Assembly (NCBI RefSeq): GCF_000372725.1 | Contig: NW_005201391.1 | Location: 236,736-300,735 of the forward strand | Length of the DNA: 64,000 nt | Source of the DNA: Emiliania huxleyi CCMP1516 | Lineage: Eukaryota | Reading direction: 5' to 3' | In this document: in pieces, positions 1 to 60,610 of the stretch | How the letters are laid out: each line of letters starts with the position of its first letter | Numbering within the stretch: the stretch's first letter is position 1 | Made by a program: the position numbers and the translations under genes | The notes under the pieces: model-generated | Seen by the model: only the letters and a program-made list of their open reading frames with translations | The model's database searches: none | Told to the model about the DNA's origin: nothing

Positions 1-755
1 TGGCCCAGCTTGCCATAGCCTCCATCGCCCCAGCTCCAGACGGCTCCGTCGGCGGTGAGGGCGAGGTTGTGCACCTCTCCAGCCGAGACAGCGACGACGC
101 GCCGCCCAGCAAAGGCCTCGATCTTCTTGGGCAGCAGCTGGATCTGCCAGTCGCCGTGGCCCAACCGGCCTTGCCCTCCATAGCCCCAGCTCCAGACAGT
201 GCCGTCGGCGGCGAGGGCAAGGCTGTGGCCGGGGGCAGCCGACACGCTCATGGCGCGCTCGCCGCCCAGAGGCGAAGGGAGGAGGGTCGGCGTGTTGAGC
301 TGCGTCACTCCCTCGCCGTGCCCGAGCAGCCCTGGCAGCCAGCTCTCAGCCTTTCCGCACGACGAGAGCCGCCCCTCGCCGTCGATGAAAAGGTTGTGCC
401 GATCGCCTGCTGCTGCCCTCGCCGGCGGGTTGGACTCGCACAGCAGCGCAGCGAAGCACAGCCACCGCACGGTGCAGCCCTCGCCCTCTGGCTGCGCAGG
501 CAGCACGTAGCCGCGCTCTTGCGCCCACAAGCGGATGCCCTCCACCGCAAGCGAGGCGTGAAAGAGGAGCGAGATGGCCGCAGCGCGAGCGATGTCGACG
601 GGGCTTTTGCAGCGAGAGAGGGCGCGCGCGAGGAGCTCCGTGGGGAGGTCGAGGAGGCGGGGGGGCGGCGGCGTGTCTGGCGAGGGAGCGGCGGTGGAGG
701 CGGAGGCGGAGGCGAGGCGGCGCGAGCGGCGCGAGCGGCGCGGCGGGGTGGACAT
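1..755 (-). CDS. F-box plus RCC1-repeat protein, 5' part; runs off the window edge
   Basis: Manual minus-strand translation from ATG at 755 gives MSTPPRRSRR..., an F-box-like LLDLPTELLARALSRCKSPVDIARAAAISLLF, then RCC1 repeats HSLALAADGTVWSWGYGGQGRLGHG and HNLALTADGAVWSWGDGGYGKLG. Absent from the ORF track because there is no stop codon in the window. Confidence 0.85.
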   Translation of the reverse strand, partial: MSTPPRRSRRSRRLASASASTAAPSPDTPPPPRLLDLPTELLARALSRCKSPVDIARAAAISLLFHASLAVEGIRLWAQERGYVLPAQPEGEGCTVRWLCFAALLCESNPPARAAAGDRHNLFIDGEGRLSSCGKAESWLPGLLGHGEGVTQLNTPTLLPSPLGGERAMSVSAAPGHSLALAADGTVWSWGYGGQGRLGHGDWQIQLLPKKIEAFAGRRVVAVSAGEVHNLALTADGAVWSWGDGGYGKLG

Positions 756-1142: not shown

Positions 1143-1674
1143 TTGCAGACATGGGTGCGAAACAACGAGAAGACCAAGGCAAGGGCAGAGGAGAGAGAGA
1201 AGAATATAGGATGGATAAAGCGCCTGTTCACGGCATGGAGGGTGAGCCACGATGAACGTAATGAACGTAGAGCCGAACGGGAGGAAGCCGGGGAAGAAGA
1301 CTCCGAGGAAGACGAAACACCAGTGGTAATCCCGTCGTCAGCTGTAACGATGCACCCGAAGGGGACCCCAGCGCCAACATCATCCGTGGAGGTACAAGTG
1401 TTCGAAGAGATGAGAGTGGACCTGAGCAACGATATGACTTGGCGGCAAATGATCGCAGTGGGCGTCACAAGAGTCGTCCTTGCGCGAGGAGAGCTCGATA
1501 AACTCGAGGGGCCGAAATATGCCGCGAGGAGGGCAGAGTTGCGCCGAAAGGCGGGAGAAGCCGCGAGAGCAAGGGATCGGCAGGCGGCGGCGGCGTCGCC
1601 GGACGAGGCAGACGAGAGCGACGCGACAGAGGAGGAAGCGACAGGAGGGAGAACGACGAGAGTGGGACGACCGC
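1143..1674 (+). mobile_element. Left half of a dispersed repeat, probably the 3' part of a non-LTR retrotransposon ORF, split by the 1675-10304 insertion
   Basis: 1360-1674 is near-identical to 19882-20205. The continuation of that intact copy resumes at 10305. Confidence 0.7.
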
Positions 1675-2157
1675 CAAGTCGTGGGGTCCAGACTCACACG
1701 AGACTCACACACGGCCGGCGCCAAGCGCGCGTAACCACCGAGCCGCTCTCCGCCGCCGCTCCTCGCCACCAACCATGATGGTGCGTGACTCGTTCACCCC
1801 CCTCCCCTCACTACGACCAGCCCTCTCACCCACCACGCCTCGTCGCCGCGCCTTTCTTTTTGTGTGTGCGGCGGCGCCGACGCCCGAGTCCAGACGCCCG
1901 CCAACGCTCGCTCGCCGCCCCGATCACACAATCTCCCCAGCGACGTTCTCCCTGCCCAGCGCTCCCGCCGCCGGCGCTGGCTCGTCAGCTCCCCCCCGAC
2001 ACGTGGAGACAAGCTCCCACCATGACACACGCGGCGCGCGCATACAGCGCGCGCAGCGCAGCGCACGCGACTCTTCCTCCCTCCCTCTCCACAGATCCCC
2101 CCCTCCTCCCGCACCACTCGCTCACAGCCTCCCTTGCCACCTCTCCTCCACCAACAG

Positions 2158-3243
2158 GGCAACTCCGATTCCACGAAAACCCTCATCAAAACTGGCGGGA
2201 GGTACATGGCCGCGCACCTCGGCGTCGCCGACGCCGACGCAGCGGTTGACTACCTCAAGACCAACGTGTTGAACCAGTGCAGCAGCGGCTGGAACGACCC
2301 GATCCTCCGCGAGTACCTCAAGAAGGACGTCTACCAGAAGTTCTACAACAACAAGAAGATCGACCACGAGAAGGCCGAGATCAAAGACGGACATGTCAAG
2401 GCTGTCGACACGTGAGTACATTCCTGTAATCCTGCAACGCCGCGCACCCTCTCACCCCCCCCCCCCCTCCCGCCCTCCCAGCTTCCTGCGGCGCACTCTC
2501 ACCGACCACTTCAAGCAGCTCCAGCCGGACCAGACGTACTTCTCCAGCATCACGCCGAGGGCGGAGCTCTACGCGTACAGCAGACCAAGCGCAACCACGT
2601 CCAGGCCGGCAACCCCTTTGGCAGTAACCGCTCGTCGACGCTCGTCGACATTGGCACGGTCTTCAGCGTGCTCCTCGTGATGTACAACATGAGCGGCACG
2701 GCGCTGTTCAAGGGCCTCAACCTCGCGGCGGGCGTCACGCTCATGCTCGCGTTTGGGCTGCGCAACATGAACGTCGAGGATGCGTCGTGGGGTTCTTTTG
2801 AGATCTTTCAGCTCGACGCAGGGGGGCGTCCGTTCTGGTACCTCTCCAACAAGCGCTCCCCCTGGGTGGGGCGCGTGAGCACGCTCCGCAAGATGGACAA
2901 GGTCGAGAGCCTGCGCGAGTTCATTGCGCACAAGAACGTCTTCTTCTGCCCGTTTGTCGCCATCTCGCTCCGCCGTTTCTACCTCCTCTCTACGAGGCAG
3001 ATCGAGCTCCCCAACATGACCAACTGGATGAAGCACGAGAAGGCGGAGACGGAGGACGAGGACCGCATCAAGAGCGAGAAGGTCGTGAGCGGCGTCGGCT
3101 GTTTTCTGCCCATGGTTTCCCAGCACCGAGAGGTCACGCGCTTCGGCAAGCTGAATCCGGAGGACTTGAAAGACGCGGCGAGCAAGGCTGACCCGCCCAT
3201 CGACCCGGGAGTTCACGCGGCCGTGTCGTCCCCACTCTTCTGA
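2158..3243 (+). pseudogene. Crypton/Ndc10-domain-like tyrosine recombinase, frameshifted and apparently C-terminally truncated
   Basis: GT-AG intron 2412-2481 and a 1-nt frameshift near 2579. Motifs SNRSSTLVDIG, TLMLAFGLRNMN (candidate first catalytic Arg, codon 2761-2763) and REFIAHKNVFFCPFVAISLRRFYLLSTRQIELPNMTNW resemble, from memory, CryptonF DRG.GTL.DGY, LLRG and RHKDV..CP.GALA.Y.F.RF...PDF...W. The HxxR and Tyr motifs were not found, and the first exon was not located. Confidence 0.62.
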
Positions 3244-4397
3244 CGCTTCTTGTGCTGCCTGCTACGCTGAGGTGTGAATAGCATTTGAATGAGGTGTGGA
3301 ACATCACATTCACAGTCCAAAGTAAAGAATATAGGTACTATGCGAAGCAATCCGCCGTGATCTCGAGGTGAACAGCGTCTGCGAGCTTCGACGATCTCTC
3401 GCTTGCGGTCACTCAAACGCGTTTCGCTGTAGGTGAGCTGCTTGCTGCTGGCGCCAGCTGTGCGACACTCTCAGCCGAGCTCTGAGCCGCTCCTCGCCCC
3501 GTGTCGCAGGCCATTCGACGGCTCATGCGCTAGGTTCGCCCATGGCAGCGTGCGGCTTGCCGCGCGTCGCTGCCGTCTTGCTCGCGGCAGCATCAGCTCA
3601 CCAGCTCTGTCGCGCCCGCTGCCGCCGCCCTCGGCCGACACGGTCGCGCCGGGTGTACCCGGTGTCCCTCTCGCCGTCGCCAGCGCGCGCAGAACCGGAA
3701 CCGCCGACGAAACCGCCTATAGGTGTGCTACGCGCCGAGGCACCGTCGGGCCGGCCACCAGCCGTCGCCGCCACCACACTCGCTGCCCTCGGCTCCGCCG
3801 CCCTTGTGCGAGCTGCATCGCTTACCGATTAAGCTACGTGTGAGTCACTCTCCGCCCTCGGCGCGACTAGTCAGCAGTAGCGAGTGTGTGCGTCGCTGCT
3901 AGAGCCGGCCGAGGCAGTCCCGAGGGCTCCTCGCAGCGACTCGAGCGGGTCCGAATTCACTCGGCGACCGGTAAAATAGCGACGGTGTCACTTTTCAAAG
4001 ACGTACGTAACACGCGGACCGCCTCCCCCACCGTGCGATTGCCTTCAGTGGCCGCCAGACGTCCGGACCGCTCGCTTTTGGTGTGCAGCAGGGATTGCTG
4101 GCGAATGCCGCAAGTGGCTTTGGTGCTCGCGAGCACCCTCGCATACCCTTTCTTCGGCCTAGGGCCAAGCCTCCGGTCCCGTGCCGCCCACATGTTGCCC
4201 GACTTGGATGCCTGAGGCACGGCTGTGGCCGGTAGTGCACGAAAAACGAGAAAACAGGGATTTTCGATTTCGCCGACTTTGCCCATTAATAGAGCGAACC
4301 ATCCCCGACGGCAACTGCGTCAAGCAATCGGGGCGGCCCCGGCGCGTTGCGGGCGCGTTGCCCCGCGTCCCCCCACAGTAAGTTGCCTGACGTCAGC

Positions 4398-6486
4398 ATG
4401 CCCTCCCCCAAAAATCGCGCGCGAACGTCGTGGGCGCGCGTTGTCCTTGCCATCTGCGCCCTCGGCCTGCTCGCTCGCGTCGCCGGACAATGCGCCAACA
4501 TGAAAAAGGACCCGCACCTGGCATTCGCTCGCGGCGGCCGTGCCGACTTCAGAGGCCGCAATGGTGCATACTACTCGTTCCTGTCCACACCGAGCTTCGC
4601 GATAAACGTGCGCACTGAGGAGGCCCAGTTCAAGACGTACCGGGATGCGCTAACGGTCGACGGCTCCTTCATCACGGAGGTGCACGTCGTGGCGCTGGTT
4701 GGCGGGGAGAAGCACAAGCTGGCGACGGCAAGCTTTTGGACCTCCGAGCTGAACGAGTTCACAACGGGACCCAACATGATCACCGGCACGTGCGGCGACC
4801 GCGGCCAGTTCTTCCTCGGCATGGGCGGGTACAAGAAGTGCGAGGAGATGGAGATTCTCGTCAGGTTCTCGAGCGCAAGGTTCCGGGTCCCAGGCTGGGT
4901 GATCAAGGTGGCCGCCGCGCCAGTTTTCGGCCGCATTAGCGGCCCGAGGCACCGGCTCGACGTGTCGCTGCACGCGCACGGGGACGAGGCGGCGCTGGCC
5001 CAGACCCACGGCCTGGTCGGGCAGTCCTTTGCTTGGCGTACGGCGCGGGACGGGAAACGCGACCTCTACCCCTCAGAGGGGCGCTTCCGCACGTCGGCGA
5101 TGGCGGAGGGCGCAATCGAGGGCAACGCGGCCATGTACGAGCTCCCGGGTCCGCTGACGACGGAGTTTGCCTTCTCGCGCTTCCACGAAGCAAAGCAGCC
5201 GATGCTTCCCCTCCCGGCCGGCGCAGCAGCGGTGGACGCCTCGTCGACAGACCAGGTGGAGGTTGCTGGGGCGGCGAGTGCGCCTCCGGACGAGCGCAGG
5301 CTCTACGAAAAGCTGACCGGAGTTGCACACCCGTGCGCTCCGCCCTCTTCCCCCCCCCCCTACCCGCCTGGTATGCCGCCGACGCCGACGCCGTCGCCGG
5401 GCCTTTATGCAATTGGCGGATGGCTGCAGCCTGGGAATGAAGCCACAAAAGTGACATACTTCTCGAACAATAACGGCGTTAGTTGGGAACGACGGGCCGA
5501 GATGGCAACAGCTCGGGTGCAGTTCGCGATGGCGGTCGACCATGAGCACAAGAAGATTTATGTCGCCAGCGGAGACGATGGCAAAACCAGTGAAATGAAG
5601 AACAGCGCCGAGGCGCCACCCGCAGCCTCATGCCCCACTCGCTTGCCCCCTCTTCTCAAGTTATCGGCACCCCCGGTAGGGTGCCGGTAGGGTGTGACAC
5701 GACCCCCGCACATTCCACACTGCTGAATAGGTATACGACACTACCGAGGGCACATGGTCAAATCTCCCGGACTTGCCACATGACATATGGTACTACGCCG
5801 GTGCGTTCGAATGCGACACCTTCTTTGTGTTTGGGACCGATCAAGCAAGGCACGATCAAGCAAATTTCCGTGCGGCTTCTTATAACATTACCAATGGGGA
5901 ATGGAACGAGGAGACTGAAATCCAAAACATGATGCACAGGGGGGGGTGGGAACATTACGATGCAACGTACAACACAATGGGCACCGCTGTGGGGTACAAC
6001 GGGAAGCTCTACTTCCTTAGCTGGCTCTACTACAATCCGGCGCTTCTTATCTGGGATGTTCTTAACAAGAAAATGGAGGGCGGACCGCCTGACCCGGAGT
6101 ATCGCCAAAACCTTGCAATGGGCATTTTCGACCATGCCATTTTCATCGCTGGTGGGGCAAAATATGGGGGGGGGCCGATGTGTCTGTCTGGAGGAGAGGG
6201 GTGTCGGTCTGTCTGGAGGTTGAATTTGCCTATCACTAACCAATCGCAATGGATTGAGGAATTGTCCCTACCAGAGCCCTGGAATGGCGTATCGTATGGG
6301 CCCCCAACGAGTGCTGAGGTGGATGGCACATGGTGGGTTAATTTTCGAGACGACACATTAGAGGATACCGACAAGGTCTGGGTTTACAATGGCTCGTGGT
6401 CCACTGAAAGCCGCTCCCCTGGAAACTTGGCTGACTTTGGGGGGCTTCACTGGAACCTCGCACAGTTTGCGACGGTGAGTGCCTGA
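4398..6486 (+). CDS. Secreted protein with vWD/root-cap-like (DPH) domain, Pro-rich linker and Kelch-like beta-propeller
   Basis: Signal-like WARVVLAICALGLLARVAG, then KDPHLAFARGGRADFRG. Kelch-like LYAIGG, IYVASG and IFIAGG. A GC-AG intron at 5613-5730 joins ORFs 4347-5690 and 5773-6486 in frame (NSAE|VYDTTEGTWSNLPDLP). Confidence 0.85.
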
Positions 6487-6618
6487 AACGAACGAGATCT
6501 CAGCAGACCTGAAACGGAGCAATGGATTGCTGCACATACTGGACTTACACGCACAACATGTCGGTCGTCCTTTCGTTGGATGAGATCTGATGAGACCCCC
6601 CCGATCTCGAGAGGCGGG

Positions 6619-6690
6619 TAGAGGCGGGGAGGGGCGCGGAGGGGCGGGGAGGGGCGGGGAAGGGCGGGGAGGGGCGGGGAGGGGCGGGGC
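6619..6690. repeat. (GGGGCGGGGA)n G-rich decamer repeat
   Basis: About 7 imperfect tandem decamers. Confidence 0.9.
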
Positions 6691-8439
6691 GGCACGAGAC
6701 ATGCGCGGCGTAATTCTTTTATATCGGCGTGTCAAGGCGTGTCAAATACAATGCGTCGGCACCCAGCCCGGCGTAGAGAGGGCGTGGTCTCTGGGGGCGC
6801 GCGGGGGCCATAGAGGGCACCCATGCGGGGGGGAGATGGGGTCCCACGGCCCGCCGCAGGCGCCGATTCTTCCGTTTTTTTTCTTTTTTCGCGCGATTTT
6901 TTACTTGTTCTCATGGGAATTCGGCGTATCACGCCTTGCGACAGCCTGTCGGCGCTGCTGACCGTGCCCTGCTGCACAATTGATCACCTGCATAGCTCGC
7001 GGCCTTAGTATCAAGCATTCAGTGACGACCTGATCGTACGGTCAGTAGGAAGGTGTCCTTCCAACGTGTGCACGCTTCTGGCGCAATGCGCGTCGCCTCG
7101 GATTGGCTGCTGGCACTCTCGAGGCTATGCCTACGCAGCCTCGCGCGCATGGGCAGTCAAGAGGGACCACGCACCTTCTCAGGACAGCGCCGGTACCTCT
7201 CTCTTGGACCGGCAAACGTGGTGGTCTCGTGTCACCAATGTGGGACCAGTGCGGCATCGCGCCATCGACAGCTCTGAACTGCGCCTCACCACTGACCGGG
7301 AAGGCAGCCACGTGGGGGCCAGCACCGGTCGCACATTGTGGCAGCAGTCAGCAGTGCATGTCTGATAGCTAGAGCAGCAGCGTCAGGGTCGCAGGGTCGG
7401 ATCGTGTCAAGCCTCTCGCCCGGCCGGCCGCGTGCAGACGTCGGCCTGTCTGCTGTCTGGAGTGATCTGTCGGCGGTCAGTACGACCGATCAGGTCGGAG
7501 TTTTCTGATGGTTGGAGGGTCTATCTGTATGTACTCCTCGAGATCTCTCCAAATCTGCCCTCTAATCAACCGTAATCATTCGGGAAGTCGGTGCTAGGTG
7601 AGACTAGCGGAGCCGGGGCCCCGTTTCCGCACTGCGGCGCGGCGCACCCCTCCCCCCACCTCTTCCCCCTGGTAGAAGCCAGAAGAAGGGTCACACCCCA
7701 GCGCGTCCTTCACCTTGACGGTGTCGATGTCAAATCCCCGAAATCGACCAAGCCGTGTCTTTTTCTTTTGCTGTGAGAAGATGTGTCTGGCTTCAGCAGG
7801 TTGTTCGAACCCATTAATGTTGAATTGTTTAATTCCAGCTCACCCCCCCGGTCAAACCCTCAGCGTTGCGTTGTGTCTCTGGCACAAAGATTCCACAAAT
7901 TCATATAAGAACCTCTTGAGAGGGTTGATGGTGATTTGAGAACGGTGGGAAGCATTGTTGCGCGGCAAGTCATCCGGTGACGTCCAAGGGGTGTCGCGCC
8001 TGTGCTCTTCACTCTTAATATAATCACAAACACTCCACGCAGGGCGTTGATGTTGTCAAAATGCTCGCCAAAAACATCATGCCAATCATTCCAAAACTGT
8101 GACGCGTCACCCCAGAGAGGGGCTGCCATCGCCGAAGCTGTGCTTAAGCATAACTCCAAAACCCGCAGCGGCCCAGGGGGCCTTGGGGGCAGCCCGCCGG
8201 ACCGCCGCTGCACGGGGCTAAGCACCAGTCGACGGGGAAGATGAGCGTAGTTGATGGCTTAGGCTATCGCCCGTGCTTCCCCTCTTTTCGTCAGAGTGGG
8301 ACTTACGCCGCGCCGGGTAAGGGGCGCGCCCGGTCCTCGACGGAGCCGCGCGCCCCAAACGACCCAGGCGGCGAGTAGTCGATCTCGAACCTCCGTCACG
8401 TTGTTGCCCGTGGTTAGCGCCCGTCCTCTCCGCCCGTTC

Positions 8440-8850
8440 CTACTCGAATTGCTCCGGAGGTGCCCTTGGCGGCTCGCCCCCTCGTTTCGGGCACGCGTTG
8501 CGGTCGAAGATCTCGAAGTTGCGCCGCGCGATTATGGCCGCGTGCTCTTGCAGGAAGCGGTGGCGTTCGCGGCGGACCCGCCACCGCTCGCTGTCGGAGG
8601 ACGCTTTGGCGAGCTTGGCGGCGAAGTTGGTGGTAAACCAGGCTGCCGCTTCTCGACCGATGCCTCCGCGCGTGCTCGATGCCCACGTCATGAAGTCGAA
8701 GTTATTGGCGTCGCACGCCGCGGCCTTGGCCTTCCTCTTCGCCTCCTCGGGGTAGTCGGTTGCGAGGCGCTTGCCGCTCGCGAGCGGGCCTAGCATGCCG
8801 TGGTGTACCGCGGTGGTGCACGTGCCGTCGAACGTTGAGTGAGGTGTGTC
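8440..8850 (-). mobile_element. 3' remnant of a CRE/R2-type non-LTR retrotransposon (restriction-like endonuclease region)
   Basis: Translation FDGTCTT...EEAKRKAKAAAC...FDFMTWASSTRGGIGREAAAWF...FLQEHAAIIARRNF follows the D.T / E..K..K / F.P.A.ET.GG.G / LQ..S..L.R.N pattern of RLE domains. Confidence 0.65.
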
Positions 8851-10304
8851 CGGTGGCTAACCAGCCGCCGTAGTTGCGCCCATCCCAGTGTGTGCCGTTG
8901 TAGTGCTCAAAGAGCGACAGCGTGCGCGGTGGCTTCGCCTTGCCGATGGTGCAGGGCGGGCACTCGGGTAGCATCGAGCGATGGTAGATGCACTTCGACG
9001 TGTCGCCCACGCCGGTGCAGCGCGTCGCGAGGGTGATGGCACCCTTGGGGTGGTTGAGGTAGCCTTGCGTTTCGTAGAGCCACGCCCGGTCGTGCAGTTC
9101 AGTGGCGGGGCTGATCAGGTCGATGCCCAGCACTTTTTTTCCCTCTCCTGAGTGGTCCCTAAGCCCTTGGGATGGACAAAGGCGATGCACGCACCGAGCA
9201 GATCGGTTCAAACTGAAGACAGGAGCGCATTCGCCACCCCCTACGCATCTCCCGATCAGCTCCCGACGCAGGCGCACGCTTGAACTCTGGGCTCGCTCAG
9301 AGGCGCGCCGCGCCGCGCGCCAAGGCGGCGCCGAGGCCGGCGCCTTGCTCCCGGCCCGCGGCCGGCACCGCCTCGCCCCACCACTGACCGCCCTGTGGCC
9401 CCTGTGCAGGCGTGCCGCAGGCGTCGCTCGAAGCGACGGCCGGGTGTGGGCTGCTCCCTTGCCCCGTCACCCGCCGCGCCCTCGCCCGGCCGCCTCACCG
9501 CGCACGGAGCGCTCGGCTGCTCGCCGCCGCCGCCGCGCGTCCCGCGCCGCCACGCTTGCCCTTGCCTTGACGCGCTCTGCGCAAGCAGAGCGCTCGTCTC
9601 TGGCACAGACGGAGCAGCGACCGCGCCAGCGGTCGCTGCTCCGCCCCCCCGACGCGCGCGCTGCCGCCGCCGCCGCCGTCGCCGCCTCCTCGCCGTCTCT
9701 CCCTCCGTGTGGTGTGTGGTGCGCGCGTGCGCGCGCAGCGCACGGCAGCGTCTCCACCCCTCACGCGCGCGCCCGCGCCGCCGCCGCCCCCGCCCCCGCC
9801 GCCGCCCCTGAAGGCGAGGCTGTGGCGACAGCTGGCGTCAGAGCGAGAGCGGAAGGCTAAGCTCCGTCGAGCCGAGCGGCGGCGGCAACGACGGCTCGGA
9901 GAGCCCAAGGAGGACGTGGCTGAAGAACCTAAACCGGACGAGTACGACTCGGACGCGGCTCACGAGGGTGATGCTCCGAGGGCGGGTGCCACGCGGGATC
10001 CAACATACCGCCTCCCCGAAGGCGCGCACACACGATCGCACTCATCGTTACCCGAGCACTCAGGCTGCCCTGAGCGCTGCCCCTGGCGTGCTGCGGCAGC
10101 GCCGCTACGGGTACCGGTGCTGGTGCCCCAGCTGCGCATGGGGAAACCACCCTCCCTCCCCTGCAACACCCTCCCTCCCTCCCTCCCTCCCTCCCCCCGC
10201 ACCCCCCTCCCTCCCTCCCACCCTTTCCTGTGCGAAGAGAGCGCGTTTAGCCGCCCCGGGGCCCAAAAATCGAATGTGTGAGTCTCGTGTGAGTCTGGGG
10301 GCGA

Positions 10305-10509
10305 GACCGCGAGGTGGCATGAAGGTTGCAGCGAGAATCGGCGAGGGACTGCGAAGGGAGATAGAAAGAGGCAGACGACCAAAGGCGGGCTCCGCAGCCG
10401 ACGCCTGACCGTCGGAAAGCGAACAGGAGGGAGGACCGGGAGGAGAGGGGAGCCCCTTCGGATGGGGGGTGGGGAGATCGGGCGGAGGGGCCCTGAGTGG
10501 CGATGTCGG
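10305..10509 (+). mobile_element. Right half of the split dispersed repeat
   Basis: 10305-10382 is identical to 20200-20277. The reading frame continues from the left half (GRPRGGMKVAARIGEGLRREIERGRRP). Confidence 0.75.
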
Positions 10510-10587
10510 GTGAGAGAGATTTTTAGCAATACCAAACAACTCTAACACTCACACATCATTTGGGGCCTGGAGCCCTGTTCACGCGCG
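10510..10587. repeat. Dispersed repeat GAGAGAGATTTTTAGCAATACCAAACAA...GGGGCCTGGAGCCC, copy 1 of 3
   Basis: Near-identical copies at about 44003-44067 and 60201-60280. Confidence 0.9.
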
Positions 10588-10614
10588 TTTATGTGAACGC
10601 TCGTCCATGCGACC

Positions 10615-11035
10615 GGCAAAGGCTGGGTCAAGGAGCACAAGGGACAGTACTACGACGCGCTCCATGTCAAGAACGGAATCGTCAAAATTTGTCTCGTCGA
10701 AAGGGCGGCATCGCGCCGCCGACCAAGAGAATCATCTTCAACTTCGCCAAAGTGCAAAGAGGTCGGCAGCCCGAGCGCCGTCGACCGCACCGACTACGGC
10801 ACAGCCTCCGGCAGCGCCCGGGGCTTCGCCCAGCACCACTCGCAACAGCTCTCGCGCGCCGCCGTCTGTGGCGACGCGCAGAAACATCAACAACGCTGCT
10901 CGCAACATGCGTGTCGCGCACTCATTCATGACCGGTCTCCAATGTTCCACCCCCCTGCGCGCGCGGGCCTTCTATAGGCCCGCGGGTAGTCTCCCCCCAT
11001 CCCCAGGGCCTCCAGGGCTCGCACCTCAACCTCTC
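10615..11035 (+). mobile_element. Degenerate 3' end of a CRE-like non-LTR element
   Basis: Frameshifted reading GWVKEHKGQYYDALHVKNGIVKICLVE/GGIAPP.../DRTDYGTASGSARGFAQHHSQQLSRAAVCGDA. 10757-11035 is repeated at about 59834-60110. Confidence 0.55.
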
Positions 11036-11169
11036 ACAGACCAGCGCACAGCGCTACACGAGGTATTTTCTTCTCAATAACAAGGCTGTGAACGGAGCTT
11101 GGTCACTTATCAACCTATCTGTGAACGTGAACGAGAGCGTACGGGGTCCTCTCTTCGCCATGCACAGAC

Positions 11170-12462
11170 GGTGAACCTTCTTTTGTACCAAGGTAGGATT
11201 GAGAGCAGCCTCGCTCTCAATCCTAGAAGTCGAAGGATTGTGAGCAGCACTCCTCGCAATCGTAGCATCTCTGCGATTGTGAGCCCTTACGCTCGCAATC
11301 CTACATCTTCTAGGACTAAGAGCAGCTCCGCTCACAATGTGACTGGTGACGCCTACGACTACTACCAGCGCGCTCACAATCCGAGCAAACTCTAGGGTTG
11401 CGAGCAGCTTAGCTCACAATCCTAGCAACATGCCTTCGATTTCGAGCAAAAGCGCTCGCAATCCTAGAACTTTCGCCGATTGCGAGCGACACCGCCCACA
11501 GTCCTACGACTTCTAGGATTGCGAGCGGGTCCCCTCGCAATCGGTGCGATCACTGTTTGGATTGTGAGGAGACCCTCCCGGCGCGCTCACTCACAAGCGC
11601 TCGCGGCTGGAGCGATTGGGAGCGCCCTCTGTGCGAGTGCTATAGCAGTCCTTGGATCTTTGGTACGATTGTGAGCGCAGCCGCTCATAGTCCTACAAGA
11701 TGTAGGATTGCGAACGCTCCTGCTCGCAATCAGAGGCATGTTGCTAGGATTGTGAGCATAAATAAATAAATAAAAACGGACACCTCTCTACTGTGAGATG
11801 GGTAAAAAGGAACAGGTCCCCGCCCTTGCGATCTTTGTGCCGGGTTCTTTGTGGGTGTGGTCGGCGACTAGCCGGGGTCGTCCTCCGATGGGGGACTAGC
11901 ACTAGCCGTCTTCCACATGGTCCCTCGGGTCCCTGCTGCTCCTAATCTCGTCGTACATCCTCCTACTGATCTCCGCAAAGTCCTGCTCCCTCCCTCGTCT
12001 CGCCCTGCGCGTTTGCTCCGCCTCCCCGTCGTCTGCCCTGCGTCGTCTGGCGACGGGTCCTCCATAGTCGGTCGAGGTCGCCGCCCTCCTCGTGCCTCTT
12101 CCCAGCGTTCCCTCGGCGGCCGATGCCGTCTGCTCCGGCTCCCCAGTCCCCGGTTCTGCCCTGCTCTCGTCTGCGCTAGTTTCTGCTTCGTCATCACTGG
12201 CGCCGATTGTGAGCAGTGCTGCTCGCAACCCTAGAGTTTGCTCGGATTGTGAGCGCGCTGGTAGTAGTCGTGGGCGTCACCAGTCATTTTGTGAGCGGAG
12301 CTGCTCTTAGTCCTAGAAGATGTAGGATTGCGAGCGTAAGGGCTCACAATCGCAGAGAGATGCTACGATTGCGAGGAGTGCTGCTCACAATCCTTGCTTC
12401 GACTTCTAGGATTGAGAGCGAGGCTGCTCTCAATCCTAGCCTGGTACAAAAGAAGGTTCACC
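11170..12462. mobile_element. Non-autonomous Mutator/Foldback-like DNA transposon
   Basis: 9-bp TSD TGCACAGAC at 11161-11169 and 12463-12471. TIRs of about 295 bp begin GGTGAACCTTCTTTTGTACCA and are built from repeated GATTGYGAGC/GCTCRCAATC motifs. Confidence 0.92.
11759..12204 (-). mobile_element. 5'-truncated LINE/SINE-like insertion with (TATT)n tail, nested in the right TIR of the Mutator-like element
   Basis: 11-bp TSD GATTGTGAGCA at 11748-11758 and 12205-12215. Removing the insert restores TIR symmetry. Its 3'-terminal ~65 bp recur at 20367-20433. Confidence 0.85.
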
Positions 12463-17450: not shown

Positions 17451-17867
17451 CATAGTCTGAGGGTTCCTAAAAGTTCGGCCGATTTGGGTCAAAACGCTAA
17501 AAGCACGCCTAGGCGTAGAGTTGGGGCAAAACGACAAAAGTGGGCCCGCCCGGGGCAAAATGGTAAAAGTCGCGCGCCGCAGGCGCGCAAAAATTTTGCG
17601 AGGGGCGCTTTCGAGGCGAGCAGCACAGCATGTTTCTAGCCATAGTGTGCGGGAACTACTCAACTACTTCGCGCGGGACAATAGCTACTACTTACTGCAC
17701 CTCCGGCGCGCGGAGCCTCCGGCCCGGAGCGCCGAATTTTTTTTGAGACGAAATGCTAAAAGTTAGGCGCTCCGAGACGATCGAAGTGATAAAAGTCGCA
17801 CTCTCCCCTGACCCGATCAAAAGTCTAAAAGCACCCGAGGCTCCAGAAACCTAACCCTCAGACTATG
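17451..17867. mobile_element. MITE, P-element-like, copy 1
   Basis: 15-bp perfect TIR CATAGTCTGAGGGTT and 8-bp TSD CAAGGACT at 17443-17450 and 17868-17875. Confidence 0.92.
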
Positions 17868-19881: not shown

Positions 19882-20300
19882 AGGGGACACCAGAGCCAGC
19901 ATCATCGGTGGAGGTACAAGTGTTCGAAGAGATGAGAGTGGACCTGAGCAACGATAATTCGATATGACTGGGCGGCAAATGATCGCAGTGGGCGTCAGAA
20001 GAGTCGTCCTTGCGCGGAGGAGAGCTCGATAAACTCGAGGGGCCAAAATATGCCGCGAGGAGGGCAGAGTTGCGCCGAAAGGCGGGAGAAGCCGCGAGAG
20101 CAAGGGATCGGCAGGCGGCGGCGGCGTCGCCGGACGAGGCAGACGAGAGCGACGCGACAGAGGAGGAAGCGACAGGAGGGAGAACGACGAGAGTGGGACG
20201 ACCGCGAGGTGGCATGAAGGTTGCAGCGAGAATCGGCGAGGGACTGCGAAGGGAGATAGAAAGAGGCAGACGACCAAGGGTTAGGGTGGGCGACGGCTAG
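19882..20300 (+). mobile_element. Uninterrupted copy (empty site) of the repeat that is split at 1674/10305
   Basis: Reads ...GAGTGGGAC-GACCGC-GAGGTGGCATG... with a single GACCGC. Confidence 0.85.
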
Positions 20301-43744: not shown

Positions 43745-44874
43745 TCGACGTGAAGACTGCCCGCCGGAGGGGCACAGAGTGGCAGATCTGGTCGCTGCCG
43801 GCGATGAAGGTCAGACGGAGACGCGCTGACCAACCGTACTAAGCCGACAGAGGAAGGAGAAATACGGCCAGGCGGGTCCTACATTTGTTTTCCTTCCTTT
43901 CTTTCAGACGTGAGTATGTCGAGTGAGCATGTCAAAAATAAAGATAGTAAGTAAGATTACGAGGCCGTCGGCCGCCCAAGACCCCCCCCCCCCGAAATGA
44001 AGAGAGAGAGATTTTTAGCAATACCAAACAAATCTAACACTCACACGTCATTTGGGGCCTGGAGCCCCTGCACAATGATGTTTATGGTGGTTTAAAGTTT
44101 GCGGGGGGGGGGGGGGGGGACAGCTTTGCGCGGTCGAATTCAATTTGGGGGGGTTTACGACGGTTTTGGGGATCCTCGATCCTGCCGACGCGCTACAGTT
44201 GTAGCCCCACTGGCACTGCACATAAGATGGACGGACACCTCACCGGGAGGGCCCTCGCAGCAGCCGGGGCCGACGCCTGCAGACTTAGTCTTCGCCCGAT
44301 CCGGCGGTATGCAACGGGTAGGCGCGTTGAGGCTTGCCGCCTCCTCTGCGCCAACGCGGCCTGTGCCGCAGTTTGCGATTGCCGCCAGACAAGAGGAGGA
44401 GCAGAGCCGTTTGGCGATAGGGCCAGGCAATCGCATTCGCCCCGTGGGCGTTGCGGACCCGGCCCTGTTCACGCGCGCGCGAGACGTGCAGACAGGGTTG
44501 CCAGGTGAGAGCGAATGGCGCGGTTCACGCCTCGCACAATGTTTGTGTTGTGAAATGAAAGGCCTACTCGAGTAGAACGGGAGCAGCGACCCACCCAGCC
44601 AGCCCCCCCTTATTTATTTCCTGTTTGCACCAAGTGTGGGCTATGATGAGCTGTGTGTGAGTGTCCGCCCGCAGGCAGGCGCGGGCGGTGTATATTCCTG
44701 ACCCCCCCAAAGACCCCTTTTGACACCCAGCGGACCACCCTCCGAGGAAGAGCTACCAGTCATACTGCGTAAAATCCTTCGTTACCGTTGTACTTTTAGT
44801 ATGGAGAAATGAGGGATAAACCCGGCCCCGGCACGCCGCTTTTTCGGCGTTCGATCTGTAGAGCTCTATCAGAT

Positions 44875-47800
44875 ATGCTAGCGTGTCTGCTCGTGCCGCT
44901 GCCGGGGCTCGACCCCTGCGCCCCTGTGTCTAGTGTGGATCGCGACCCGCATCTTCACTTCGCTCATGGCGGCCGCGCAGACTTTCGCGGCGAGCACGGC
45001 CGCACTTACTCCTTCCTCTCGGCGCCTGGCCTAGCGGTCAACATCAAGACAGAGGATGCCGTCTTTCGGATGAATGGAGGCCGTCTGGTCGTGCACGGGT
45101 CCTTCATCACCGAAGCTCACGTTGTGGCACGCGCGGCAGGTTCCAAGTTTGCCTTTGTCAATGCATCCTTCTGGGCGCGTGAGCTGAGAGAGGACAGCTG
45201 GGGTTGGCAGGTGATCACCGGGGCCTGCGCCCAGACGTCTTTCAAGATTGGCAGGCGGGGTTCCAAGGCCTGCCTCGGGCTGTCCATTCGCATGCGGTAC
45301 TTCAGTGCCACGTTCGTGAAAGGGGGCTGGACTATTGACATCAGGGGCAACCACGTCTACGACCGAGTCGCAGGACCCACGCACCGCCTCGACATCAGCT
45401 TCAGCGCCGCTCGCGGGGAGGCTCGCTCTCTGCCGCATGGCATTGTCGGCCAGAGCTTCTGCTCCTCCGCGCCGCGACGGGGCCGCGTCGACGAGTACCC
45501 TGCCGAGGGCCACTTCACGACGCAGGCAATGGCTGAGGGCGCGATAGAGGGGGAGGCGGCCATGTACGAAGTGCCGTTCGCGCACGCGGTCGACTTTGCA
45601 TTTTCCCGATTCGAAGCAGAGCCACTGACCCCCAGCCTCGCAAGCAACGGCACGGACTTGGCCCTAGAAGCCGCGGCAACTGAAGCAGTGGGACAAGCGA
45701 CGATTTCGCACGACAGGCGTCTATCGGAACAGGCGCCGCCCTGCGCACCTCCACCACCCCAGGCAGACAGCGACAGCGACGGCGCGCCTGACGCGGAGGA
45801 GGGCACGGGCGACGCAGACAGCGACGGCATCCCCGACGCAGAGGAGTCCAACACGAGCGACGCAGACAGCGACGGCGCGACCGACAACGTCGACCCCGAC
45901 GCAGACGGCGACAGCATACCCGACGCAGAGGAGGACACCAGCGACGCAGACAGCGACGGCGCGCCTGACGCGGAGGAGGGCACGGGCGACGCAGACAGCG
46001 ACGGCATCCCCGACGCAGAGGAGTCCAACACGAGCGACGCAGACAGCGACGGCGCGACCGACAACGTCGACCCCGACGCAGACGGCGACAGCATACCCGA
46101 CGCAGAGGAGGACACCAGCGACGCAGACAGCGACGGCGCGCCTGACGCGGAGGAGGGCACGGGCGACGCAGACAGCGACGGCATCCCCGACGCAGAGGAG
46201 TCCAACACGAGCGACGCAGACAGCGACGGCGCGACCGACAACGTCGACCCCGACGCAGACGGCGACAGCATACCCGACGCAGAGGAGGACACCAGCGACG
46301 CAGACAGCGACGGCGCGCCTGACGCGGAGGAGGGCACGGGCGACGCAGACAGCGACGGCATCCCCGACGCAGAGGAGTCCAACGCGAGCGACGCAGACAG
46401 CGACGGCGCGACCGACAACGTCGACCCCGACGCAGACGGCGACAGCATACCCGACGCAGAGGAGGACACCAGCGACGCAGACAGCGACGGCGCGCCTGAC
46501 GCGGAGGAGGGCACGGGCGACGCAGACAGCGACGGCATCCCCGACGCAGAGGAGTCCAACACGAGCGACGCAGACAGCGACGGCGCGACCGACAACGTCG
46601 ACCCCGACGCAGACGGCGACAGCATACCCGACGCAGAGGAGGACACCAGCGACGCAGACAGCGACGGCGCGCCTGACGCGGAGGAGGGCACGGGCGACGC
46701 AGACAGCGACGGCATCCCCGACGCAGAGGAGTCCAACACGAGCGACGCAGACAGCGACGGCGCGACCGACAACGTCGACCCCGACGCAGACGGCGACAGC
46801 ATACCCGACGCAGAGGAGGACACCACGCCGCTGAATCCACCCTCATCCGTGCCGCATCCGCCCGACAAGGCGCCCACGCCGCCGCCATCGCCGCCACCCT
46901 ACCCTCCGATAGTGGCTCCATTACCTCCTCCCCCATCACCACGGCCTCCTCCTTGCCCACCGACGGATGTGACGTTTGAGGCCAGCACGGCGAGGACAAG
47001 CAGCACCTTCTACGTGTTTACGGCCCAGTGGTGCGTCGACGGCGGAACGACGGGGACTCAAGTGGCAAACGCGCCGAAGAAGTGCCAGACCGGCACGTGG
47101 ACAAGCGTGACGAGCGAGCAGAACCCCTTCGTCGAGGTCGACCTCGGGCAGGAGCGATACGTGGGTAGCGTCGGTATCTCTCACCTGGCGGATCTGGGCT
47201 ACTTTGAGGTGTGGCTGTCCGACACGACCACCCCTCAGACTCAGTGCGCCGAGGGCAACGCGGGTGCCTCCTCGAGCATGGCCGAGGAGGTGCTGGACTG
47301 CGTCGGGTACGCGCGGTACGTGACCGTGATGCTCCCGGGCGCGTCTCGCAACCTGGACTTGTACGAGGTGGCGACGCACCCGTGTCCGACCGACCCGTCT
47401 CCGCCGCCGCCGCCGTTCCCACCTCCAGTCGGACCGCTGCCGAAGCCGCCGCCGAGCCCGATGCCTCCTCCTCGACTGCCGTCATGCCCACCGACGGATG
47501 TGACATTCGATGCCGTCGGTGCGACAATGAGCAGCACCTTCTACGTGTTTACGGCCCAGTGGTGCGTCGACGGCGGAACGACGGGGACTCAAGTGGCAAA
47601 CGGGCCGAAGAAGTGCCAGACCGGCACGTGGACAAGCGTGACGAGCGAGCAGAACCCCTTCGTCGAGGTCGACCTCGGGCAGGAGCGATACGTGGGTAGC
47701 GTCGGTATCTCTCACCTGGCGGATCTGGGCTACTTTGAGGTGTGGCTGTCCGACACGACCACCCCTCAGACCCAGTGCGCCGAGGGCAACGCGGGTGCCT

Positions 47801-54407: not shown

Positions 54408-54959
54408 CATAGCGGTCTGAGGGTTAGGTATTGGTTTCTGGAGCCTCGAGTGCTTTTACGCTTTTGATCGGGTCAGGGGAGAGTGCGACTTTTACCACTT
54501 TGGTCGTCTCGGAGCGCCCAACTTTTAGCATGTTTCAAAAATTTCTTCGGCGCTGCGCGCCGGGTGCAGCAAGTACTAACTAGCTATCGTCCCGCAACGG
54601 CAAGTAGTTCCCGCACACTATGGCTAAAAAAATGCTGCCGCTCGCCCCTCGAAAGCGCCCGCCGGTGTGTGTCCAAACATGTAGCGCTACAAGTTTGTGA
54701 CACATAAGGACGCATCCTCCCACAACACTTCACCCGCTGGCTTGGTTGCAGCTGCCGACCATCTGCCGGCTTGGGGGGGCTAGTGGCATTCGCCGGAGAG
54801 TAGAATGTCCAAAATTTTCGCGCGCCTGCGGCGGCGCGACTTTTACCATTTTGCCCCGGGCGGGCCCACTTTTGTCGTTTTGCCCCAAATCTACGGCTAG
54901 CCGTGCTTTTAGCGTTTTGACCCAAATCGGCCGAACTTTTAGGATACCCTCAGACTATG
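54408..54959. mobile_element. MITE, P-element-like, copy 2; inverted relative to 17451-17867
   Basis: 8-bp TSD GTCTGGCG at 54400-54407 and 54960-54967. Ends CATAG(CG)GTCTGAGGGT / ACCCTCAGACTATG. Body is the reverse-complement homologue of copy 1 with about 135 bp extra. Confidence 0.92.
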
Positions 54960-59769: not shown

Positions 59770-60610
59770 ACTCAACCTCTCACCAGCACGCAGCGCCATG
59801 GAGGTATTTTCTTCTCAATAACAAGGTCTGTGAAGAGGTCGGCAGCCCGAGCGCCGTCGACCGCACCGACTACGGCACAGCCTCCGGCAGCGCCCGGGGC
59901 TTCGCCCAGCACCACTCGCAACAGCTCTCACACACCGCCGTCTGTGGCGACGCGCAGAAACATCAACAACGTTGCTCGCAACATGTCGCTCACTCATTCA
60001 TGACCGGTCTCCAATGTTCCACCCCCCTGCGCGCGCGGGCCTTCTTAGGCCCGCGGGTAGTCTCACCCCATCCCCAGGGCCTCCAGGGCTCGCACCTCAT
60101 ACAACCTCTCATACACCAGAAGAATGTTAGTGTTCGTAGACCAGCGCGCAGCGCCATGGCACGCATTTTCTTCTCAATAACAGGTCTGTGAAAGACCAGC
60201 GTGAGAGAGATTTTTAGCAATACCAAACAAATCTAACACTCACACGTCATTTGGGGCCTGGAGCCCTGTTCACGCGCGCGCGAGACGTGCAGACAGGGTT
60301 GCCAGGTGTGCGACGGGGTTGTGCGTTTCTGTGAAAGACCAGCGCGCAGCGCCATAGGCGTGACTGTCTCTGTGCGATTTCGGGCCCGGGGTTGTGCGTT
60401 CACATGCATGTGAACCCCAGGGCCTCCAGGGCTCGCACCTCAAACCTCTCACAGACCAGCGCACAGCGCCATAGGACGTATTTTCTTCTCAATAACAAGG
60501 CTGTGAACAGCGTGTTGCGTGACTGTCTCTGTGCGATTTCGGGCCCGGGGTTGTGTGTTTACTGCCCGGGGTTGTGCGTTTACGTGAAGAGCGTTTTTGT
60601 GTGAACAGCG
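59770..60610. repeat. Composite repeat cluster sharing modules with 10510-11100 and 44003-44510
   Basis: Repeated ACCAGCGCRCAGCGC...TATTTTCTTCTCAATAACAAGG modules, a CRE-like remnant at 59834-60110, and the GAGAGAGATTTTTAGC repeat at 60201. Confidence 0.85.

What the first reader, a model, noticed from the sequence alone, without database searches (positions are those of the whole stretch)
1669..10310. 8.6-kb cargo-carrying Crypton-like tyrosine-recombinase element, Starship-like, with an empty-site paralogue in the same window
Seen in sequence: a repeat that is continuous at 19882-20300 is broken here. Its left half stops at GACCGC (1669-1674) and its right half restarts at GACCGC (10305-10310), so 8630 bp were inserted with a 6-bp direct repeat. 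Just inside each end is a perfect 24-bp inverted repeat (1688-1711, 10275-10298). The first gene inside resembles a Crypton/Ndc10 tyrosine recombinase and is followed by a complete-looking secreted-protein gene and other fragments. Established: Cryptons have short terminal direct repeats, some have subterminal inverted repeats, and fungal Starships are large elements with a leading tyrosine recombinase and cargo genes. Inference: this is a gene-carrying YR transposon in a haptophyte, which I do not know to have been described, and it could contribute to strain-variable gene content.
Basis: partly seen in the sequence, partly recalled or inferred. Interest (0 to 1): 0.9.

Follow-up and report, generated by a model that had tools for sequence, protein, structure and literature searches.

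The report
Cargo-carrying Crypton fused to RuvC resolvase
This 8.6-kb insertion is a dead, gene-filled copy of a multi-copy jumping-DNA family in what is likely a marine alga; the family's intact enzyme is likely a Crypton-type recombinase fused to a predicted DNA-junction-cutting (RuvC-like) domain, and its short right end borders different DNA in different copies, so it may move host genes much as fungal Starships do.

Summary
The insertion is real: the empty site, the direct repeat and the perfect 24-bp subterminal inverted repeats all check out. Both ends recur at unrelated flanks. The constant core is 5 bp (GACCG), not 6, and the inverted repeats sit asymmetrically, as expected for a tyrosine-recombinase (YR) element, not a DDE one.

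This copy is dead: its recombinase is frameshifted and stops at residue 333 of a 1,312-aa relative, P0009. P0009 has no Pfam or fold hit, but it follows a published CryptonF alignment motif by motif. It ends in a RuvC-like Holliday-junction-resolvase domain with all catalytic residues; support is weak-to-moderate and rests on one sequence.

Inside lie one intact 656-aa signal-peptide/Kelch-like gene and nested repeats. The ~75-bp right end borders at least four different inner sequences across copies, one an intact MFS transporter gene. That the cargo moved as a unit is not shown. It is not a Starship member (no DUF3435), and the host is inferred.

Verdict: a new CryptonF-like variant with variable interiors and a likely resolvase fusion, not found in my paper searches.

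The parts
1360..1668 (+). Left half of the very high-copy host repeat that was interrupted (target)
   Evidence: summed contig depth 2e4-4e5 against tens for single-copy pieces
1669..1673 (+). Left core GACCG (recombination core, inferred)
   Evidence: homology with L002, which has an unrelated flank, starts exactly here
1688..1711 (+). Left 24-bp subterminal inverted repeat, itself two tandem 10-bp units; 14 bp inside the core
   Evidence: identical in L002
1674..2157 (+). Conserved left end and 5' region of the family
   Evidence: 94% identical to L002 over 1669-1997; depth about 5-10 times single copy in run X1
2158..3213 (+). Broken CryptonF-like tyrosine-recombinase gene: exon 2158-2411, GT-AG intron 2412-2481, exon 2482-3213 with a frameshift near 2578; equals residues 3-333 of P0009; catalytic tail, GCR1_C-like and RuvC-like parts absent
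   Evidence: contigs of other copies leave the window's sequence at 3204-3215 (table 8)
3268..4289 (.). Nested ~1-kb high-copy repeat, starting about 55 bp after the point where the recombinase gene breaks off
   Evidence: contigs of 889 and 1,041 bp at depth 2,647 (X1) and 1,008 (X7)
4398..6486 (+). Intact 656-aa cargo gene: hydrophobic signal-like N-terminus, multigene-family domain (paralogue at 44929-45633), Pro-rich linker, Kelch-like repeats; GC-AG intron 5613-5730
   Evidence: open spliced frame; weak Kelch Pfam hits, E 0.001-0.5, below cut-off; 5431-6622 is 54% GC, single-copy in X1 and X2, without cover in X7
6797..7600 (.). Nested very high-copy repeat(s)
   Evidence: depth table
8351..9400 (-). 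Nested multi-copy fragment; by eye the C-terminus of a restriction-like-endonuclease non-LTR retrotransposon (recalled motif, no Pfam hit)
9814..10161 (.). Single-copy segment next to the right end; without cover in X5 and X7; in X6 it continues into different DNA after 10137
10232..10304 (+). Short (~75 bp) multi-copy right end
   Evidence: depth 410-1,160 in X1 against 14 just inside; 91% identical over 68 bp to L001
10275..10298 (-). Right 24-bp subterminal inverted repeat, 6 bp inside the core
10305..10309 (+). Right core GACCG
   Evidence: L001 and 8 of 19 contigs with listed outer loose ends run through it into other flanks
10310..10385 (+). Right half of the interrupted host repeat
19882..20280 (+). 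Empty-site paralogue of the target repeat, with one GACCG

Best explanation
This is a non-autonomous, cargo-filled copy of a multi-copy DNA transposon family whose ends recur at unrelated GACCG sites and whose intact protein is likely a CryptonF-type tyrosine recombinase fused to a predicted RuvC-like Holliday-junction resolvase. SHOWN: defined ends; constant 5-bp core; asymmetric subterminal inverted repeats; empty site; broken recombinase here; a 1,312-aa open relative; different inner neighbours of the right end. INFERRED mechanism: (1) recombinase supplied in trans binds the two 24-bp repeats, which would face each other across 25 bp once the ends are joined; (2) it recombines the two GACCG cores to release a circle and inserts it at another GACCG, as proposed for Cryptons and shown for Starships; (3) the fused RuvC-like domain would cut the Holliday junction left after the first strand exchange, so a 5-bp, slightly variable core suffices and copy number can rise; (4) because the right end is only ~75 bp, whatever lies between a left and a right end would travel, whether it entered by internal replacement or by pairing of ends from different copies.
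For: Ends. L002 has the left end at an unrelated flank starting at GACCGC; L001 has the right end at an unrelated flank ending GACCG|G. In one search, 8 of 19 contigs with listed outer loose ends run through GACCG, 2 through GACC, and 4 leave at 10306 (the two single-contig rows read GAACCG). The active Chlamydomonas CryptonF-1_cRei ends in CACCG and targets CAYCG (PMC9977147, passages). Protein. P0009 lacks the window's intron and is open for 1,312 aa. Against the four-sequence CryptonF alignment in PMC3627910 file S14 (compared by eye) it keeps the order and near-spacing of the pre-Arg helix and R183, K226, H-K-N-x3-C-P (239-246), F-Y-x8-F-P (255-266), R343, G-H (366-367), Y377, two C-terminal helix motifs (470-478, 520-527) and a GCR1_C-like region (916-1000) (positions). 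The catalytic tail is conserved in 4 of 4 other homologues that reach it. RuvC-like domain. D1104, E1190, K1229, K1245 and D1278-x-x-D1281 fall in register with a 30-sequence RuvC profile. It scores 7.2 bits against a best of 2.1 for 500 shuffles and 2.7 for 344 window decoy tiles; hhalign P = 0.004. Cargo. L001 carries an intact 458-aa MFS gene (Pfam MFS_1, E 7.8e-21) whose stop codon lies in the right end. The same 30 letters border the right end in runs X1 and X5; two further inner neighbours occur in X1 and in X5/X6.
Against: No Pfam, PHROG, NCBIfam or PDB profile scores P0009 as a YR, Ndc10, GCR1_C, DUF3435 or RuvC, and a 9-sequence bacterial YR profile did not score it. The motif patterns were written after seeing both sides, so their 0 of 100,000 shuffle result overstates significance. 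In hhalign local mode 1 of 150 shuffles beat the real RuvC score. The fusion rests on one protein from one contig, and no second long relative was found. Position 340 is K where CryptonF has H of H-x-x-R. No sequence holds a whole intact element, or the MFS gene together with a left end. 5 of 19 contigs leave the right end at 10298-10300, before the core. The unique cargo here is single-copy in X1, so no second jump after capture is shown. Much of the interior is nested repeats that could have entered afterwards. No circle junction was seen; contigs would drop it.
Confidence: 0.6

Rival explanations
1. An ordinary Crypton inserted here at normal size, died, and was then filled in place by deletion, nested transposons and a Pack-type element that brought the Kelch gene. 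The ends never moved the cargo.
For: The recombinase breaks off about 55 bp before a separate high-copy repeat; about half of the interior is multi-copy repeats; the unique parts are single-copy in X1.
Against: Right ends of several copies border unrelated DNA directly, including a complete MFS gene ending inside the right end. About 3 kb of recombinase gene is gone, not merely interrupted. No inverted repeat over 14 bp brackets the Kelch gene.
Confidence: 0.27
2. The ends are served by a DDE or other non-YR transposase that duplicates a fixed GACCG target, and the 1,312-aa protein is a passenger; or its RuvC-like D-E-D-D domain is the actual transposase, as in IS110.
For: Perfect inverted repeats are typical of DDE elements; no profile confirms the YR; RuvC-like DEDD transposases exist (PMC5718144, passage).
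Against: The inverted repeats are not terminal and are offset unequally (14 and 6 bp); the core is non-palindromic and constant; the YR motifs are complete and colinear with CryptonF; the RuvC-like domain keeps the two lysines and the helix before D-x-x-D of junction resolvases.
Confidence: 0.06
3. The 8.6-kb block is a misassembly that joins a left end and a right end from different loci through the high-copy flank repeat.
For: No spanning read was seen, and the block is full of repeats.
Against: The two flanks rejoin to the base into the intact repeat with exactly one core, which a chance join would hardly give. There is no N gap in 1-32068. X1 holds all the unique pieces almost letter for letter.
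Confidence: 0.07

Closest known systems
CryptonF DNA transposons (Kojima and Jurka 2011, PMC3212892, parts 1-2 of 7 and passages read; alignment in PMC3627910 file S14 read whole; CryptonF-1_cRei in PMC9977147, passages)
   Same: YR plus GCR1_C-like region in one protein, with the same motif order; short direct repeat at both ends; 5-bp target much like CAYCG; no reverse transcriptase.
   Different: Perfect 24-bp subterminal inverted repeats (Cryptons are described there as lacking them); C-terminal RuvC-like domain (described extras are DDE, C48 peptidase and HTH); K in place of H in H-x-x-R and G-H in place of G-x-W; variable gene-bearing interiors; host outside the listed groups.
Starships (PMC10104507, PMC11162782, PMC13465315, passages; bioRxiv 10.64898/2026.09.21.753150, abstract only)
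   Same: YR as first gene at the 5' end; short direct repeat from target homology; asymmetric inverted repeats; variable cargo; nested transposons.
   Different: No DUF3435 match; CryptonF-type motifs; 8.6 kb against typically hundreds of kb; one intact cargo gene; the captain here is dead; non-fungal host; faithful movement of cargo not shown.
RuvC / poxvirus A22-like Holliday-junction resolvases (phaeoviruses encode a YR and a separate A22 resolvase: PMC13236599, passages)
   Same: D-E-K-K-D-x-x-D pattern in register with phage and bacterial RuvC.
   Different: Fused to the recombinase in one chain inside a small transposon; no viral relative found in IMG/VR.
Pack-type non-autonomous transposons such as Pack-MULEs (recalled, not read)
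   Same: Non-autonomous copy with host gene pieces between the ends; the cargo gene looks chimeric.
   Different: YR-type ends, no variable target duplication, and cargo includes complete genes.

Membership tests
CryptonF | Tyrosine recombinase with catalytic R-K-H-R-H/W-Y set | tested here: met
   By motif only, in P0009: R183, K226, K340-x-x-R343, H367, Y377, colinear with the published alignment. The window copy lacks the last four.
CryptonF | Profile or fold match to Crypton/Ndc10 YR | tested here: inconclusive
   No Pfam hit at E<=10; model pLDDT 33; no Crypton profile could be built here.
CryptonF | GCR1_C DNA-binding domain | tested here: inconclusive
   By-eye match at 916-1000; no Pfam hit.
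CryptonF | Short (4-6 bp) terminal direct repeat homologous to the target | tested here: met
   GACCG at both ends, one copy at the empty site, constant at unrelated flanks.
CryptonF | No terminal inverted repeats | tested here: not met
   Perfect 24-bp subterminal inverted repeats; filed as CryptonF-like variant, not as a plain member.
CryptonF | Placement in the CryptonF clade of a YR tree | not testable with these tools
   No Crypton sequences could be fetched as data.
Starship | DUF3435 captain | tested here: not met
   No DUF3435 hit for P0009 or P0001-P0005; motifs follow CryptonF.
Starship | YR is the first gene at the 5' end | tested here: met
   2158-3213, about 490 bp inside the left end.
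Starship | Direct repeats, sometimes asymmetric inverted repeats | tested here: met
Starship | Cargo genes faithfully mobilised with the element | tested here: inconclusive
   Intact genes lie inside ends, but no cargo was seen at two sites.
Starship | Giant size (typically hundreds of kb) | tested here: not met
   8.6 kb here; lengths of other copies unknown.
DDE TIR transposons | Inverted repeats at the very ends, flanked by a target duplication | tested here: not met
   Repeats lie 14 and 6 bp inside a constant core, and the outermost bases are not inverted.
RuvC-type Holliday-junction resolvase | Four acidic catalytic residues plus two conserved lysines in order | tested here: met
   D1104, E1190, K1229, K1245, D1278, D1281 in register; profile score weak.
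RuvC-type Holliday-junction resolvase | RNase H-like fold | tested here: inconclusive
   Single-sequence model pLDDT 37; no significant fold match.
RuvC-type Holliday-junction resolvase | Cuts four-way junctions as a dimer | not testable with these tools
   Needs a biochemical assay.

The most novel reading that the evidence does not exclude
A second, non-fungal lineage of cargo-mobilising tyrosine-recombinase transposons: small Starship analogues of a bloom-forming marine alga, driven by a single-chain recombinase-resolvase that finishes its own Holliday junctions and moves whole host genes (MFS transporter, secreted Kelch protein) between GACCG sites, feeding strain-variable gene content.
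Probability: 0.35. Interest if true: 0.88.

Novelty: new variant of a known kind. Interest (0 to 1): 0.72.

Why it matters
The papers read treat Starships as confined to dikaryotic fungi and Cryptons as simple elements without inverted repeats. A Crypton-type family with variable gene cargo in a marine protist would be an independent route to eukaryotic cargo-carrying elements and a candidate source of strain-specific genes. The recombinase-RuvC fusion gives a testable answer to an open point. Active CryptonF excises cleanly yet gains copies by an unknown 'complex' route (PMC9977147), and a built-in junction resolvase is a concrete mechanism. A one-protein integrase with a 5-bp target and ~75-bp right end could also serve as an insertion tool for algae.

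Tried and rejected
Searches that found nothing:
- No whole genome was held, so no genome-wide pairing of ends.
- Homologue searches for longer proteins and for whole P0009 found nothing. P0009 is hidden behind a 180-aa cluster representative, so other fusions may be hidden too.
- No relatives in viral contigs, prokaryote genomes, plasmids or phages (one 69-aa hit at E 0.2, rejected).
- Exact look-ups of 9 of 9 window or L001 ORFs were not in the collection, so no source names for the cargo or host.
- Earlier-finding searches by sequence and place were empty.

Structure and profile work:
- AlphaFold models of P0001 (6 rows) and of the P0009 C-terminus (1 row) had pLDDT 33 and 37. Their four fold searches gave nothing significant; RNase H-like folds near the top are at E>=0.1 and not counted.
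- The full YR region of P0009 was not modelled.
- The representative-protein search (10 tries) and the protein atlas (11 tries) did not complete, so the deep-profile test stays open.
- A bacterial YR profile (9 domains recovered from 30 loci) was too narrow.
- RuvC profile: 31 viral and bacterial loci were chosen, 30 kept. They were found through a G-K-G-N-A-K-K-E word, so the set is biased.

Considered and dropped:
- GGCCGCCAAGT in other copies of the 6797-7600 repeat resembles the left end, but it is two single-base variants.
- Lack of cover of the Kelch part in X7 and of 9814-10161 in X5 and X7 is only a hint, since contigs show presence, not absence.
- No RNA run was laid.

Literature: searches found no haptophyte Crypton and no Crypton-RuvC fusion. 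Repbase, subscription journals, the Emiliania genome paper (not held) and unread supplements may already list this family.
Full report
1. Observation. The insertion is as described. The repeat that is continuous at 19882-20280 is split at 1674/10305 (95% and 99% identity), with GACCGC on both sides and 8,630 bp between. The 24-bp inverted repeat is perfect, far beyond chance (about 1e-11), and by far the longest in the block. The flank is a very high-copy repeat, and contigs of 4 of 4 runs show the joined, empty form. The empty site is therefore a paralogue, not an allele. No molecule spanning the filled site was seen.

2. The ends define a family. A scan of metagenome contigs for the 24-mer gave 2 loci. 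L002 is a left end, 94% identical over 329 bp, whose similarity starts exactly at GACCGC after an unrelated flank. L001 is a right end, 91% over 68 bp, that runs through GACCG and then leaves. Laying four runs on 9780-10330 showed that only 10232-10310 is multi-copy (depth 410-1,160 in X1 against 14 just inside; depth is a rough guide only). Of 19 contigs in the listed rows with an outer loose end (5 rows were not shown), 8 run through GACCG, 2 through GACC, 4 leave at 10306 and 5 at 10298-10300. So the constant core is 5 bp, with variants or subfamilies. The inverted repeats lie 14 bp and 6 bp inside the cores and the outermost bases are not inverted. That fits YR-type attachment sites and not DDE termini. 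If the ends were joined, the repeats would face each other across 25 bp containing the core. CryptonF-1_cRei of Chlamydomonas ends in CACCG and targets CAYCG (PMC9977147, passages).

3. The recombinase here is dead. The gene has a 70-bp GT-AG intron (2412-2481) and a frameshift near 2578. Five close homologues were found among 204 candidates, one from MMETSP. One cluster member, P0009, is open for 1,312 aa on a 4,097-nt Logan contig and lacks the intron, so it is probably a transcript. The window encodes only its residues 3-333, and contigs of other copies leave the window's sequence at 3204-3215. The catalytic tail and about 980 further residues are missing between the ends.

4. What the intact protein is. 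No library names it, and both structure models were unusable. The YR call rests on comparison by eye with the four-sequence CryptonF alignment in PMC3627910 file S14. The G-L-x13-L-R spacing before R183 is the same as in MCi-2A. There follow K226, H-K-N-x3-C-P, F-Y-x8-F-P, R343, G-H 367, Y377, G-G-Y, two later helix motifs and a GCR1_C-like region at 916-1000 (positions). Differences are K340 for the H of H-x-x-R and G-H for G-x-W. The ordered pattern occurred in 0 of 100,000 shuffles, but I wrote it after seeing both sides. A narrow bacterial YR profile did not score the protein. I put CryptonF-like YR at about 0.8.

5. A RuvC-like domain at the C-terminus. Residues 1097-1300 carry D1104, E1190, K1229, K1245 and D1278-x-x-D1281. 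With a profile of 30 phage and bacterial RuvC proteins fetched here, the region scores 7.2 bits. The best of 500 shuffles scores 2.1 and the best of 344 window decoy tiles 2.7. hhalign puts all these residues in register, P = 0.004, though 1 of 150 shuffles beat the local score, and Pfam gave no hit. I put a RuvC-type resolvase at about 0.75. The fusion is seen in one sequence only. Searches showed no Crypton-RuvC fusion; the one paper holding all terms mentions them separately. Unchecked notes from this scan report Cryptons paired with GEN1-like or RusA-like junction nucleases in other genomes. These are leads, not support, but they suggest a recurring need that is met here by fusion.

6. The interior. 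In order: a ~1-kb high-copy repeat (3268-4289); an intact 656-aa gene (4398-6486) with a hydrophobic N-terminus, a domain with a 49%-identical paralogue at 44929-45633, a Pro-rich linker and weak Kelch matches, split by a GC-AG intron; very high-copy repeats; a probable retrotransposon tail on the minus strand (recalled motif); and a single-copy segment at 9814-10161. The Kelch half is 54% GC against 66% for the window and is single-copy in X1 and X2. The intron shows that the gene came in as genomic DNA.

7. Cargo varies. In L001 an intact, intronless 458-aa MFS transporter gene (E 7.8e-21) ends inside the right end. The same 30 letters border the right end in X1 and X5, and two more inner neighbours occur in X1 and in X5/X6. 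So run X1 alone shows three different sequences behind the same right end. In X6 the window's own inner segment continues into other DNA after 10137, as a source copy would. Not shown: that these right ends pair with left ends, or that any cargo has jumped twice.

8. Mechanism (inferred). Recombinase from an intact copy binds the inverted repeats, recombines the two cores to release a circle, and inserts it at another GACCG. Circles were proposed for Cryptons (PMC3212892) and are reported for Starships (bioRxiv 10.64898/2026.09.21.753150, abstract). The RuvC-like domain would resolve the Holliday intermediate when short or imperfect homology blocks the second exchange. The tiny right end would let any DNA between two ends travel. 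The main rival is filling in place of a dead element (0.27).

9. Host. Not shown. Marine holders, an MMETSP homologue, 66% GC, a GC-AG intron and CCGAGAT-type repeats (48 words) fit a haptophyte such as Emiliania/Gephyrocapsa huxleyi by my recall only.

10. Comparison and verdict. It works like a small Starship, but it is not one: no DUF3435 and 8.6 kb. Starship recombinases were found only in dikaryotic fungi among the fungal classes surveyed (PMC11162782; PMC13465315). It is CryptonF-like but breaks the 'no inverted repeats' rule and adds a resolvase-like domain and gene-bearing interiors. Searches showed no haptophyte Crypton; Repbase and unread supplements could hold one. New variant of a known kind, interest 0.72.

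Noticed in passing
window 11170-12462: Fold-back block with 258-bp inverted arms (95%) built from ~39-bp palindromic units; looks like a MITE or Foldback-type element.
   Followed up: no
L001 294-1670: Intact intronless MFS transporter gene whose stop codon lies inside the family's right end; the same end occurs in runs X1 and X5.
   Followed up: partly
window 44929-45633: Paralogue (49% identity over 239 aa) of the cargo gene's N-terminal domain, followed by a near-perfect 177-bp tandem array at 45595-46956; no Pfam family.
   Followed up: partly
window 7601-8260 (- strand): Lower-GC (53% over 7601-8107) broken reading frames that by eye recall a D5-like primase-helicase tail; no Pfam or PHROG hit.
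   Followed up: partly
loose ends at 10298-10299: Right-end variants that leave the window's sequence straight after the inverted repeat (X1 depth 132; the same flank in X5 and X7): possible sister subfamilies with another core.
   Followed up: no
window 10510-11093: High-copy repeat with further copies at 44004-44067 and 59771-60508.
   Followed up: no
window 17465-17858 and 54426-54944: Two inverted copies of a dispersed repeat, 84-97% complementary, 37 kb apart.
   Followed up: no
window 1-560 (- strand): RCC1-like repeat gene fragment by eye (recalled motif), upstream of a (CA)59 microsatellite at 875-993.
   Followed up: no
L002 887-944: The flank of this left end holds a second GACCG about 46 bp upstream of the core, in repeated GGTAGAC words.
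   Followed up: no
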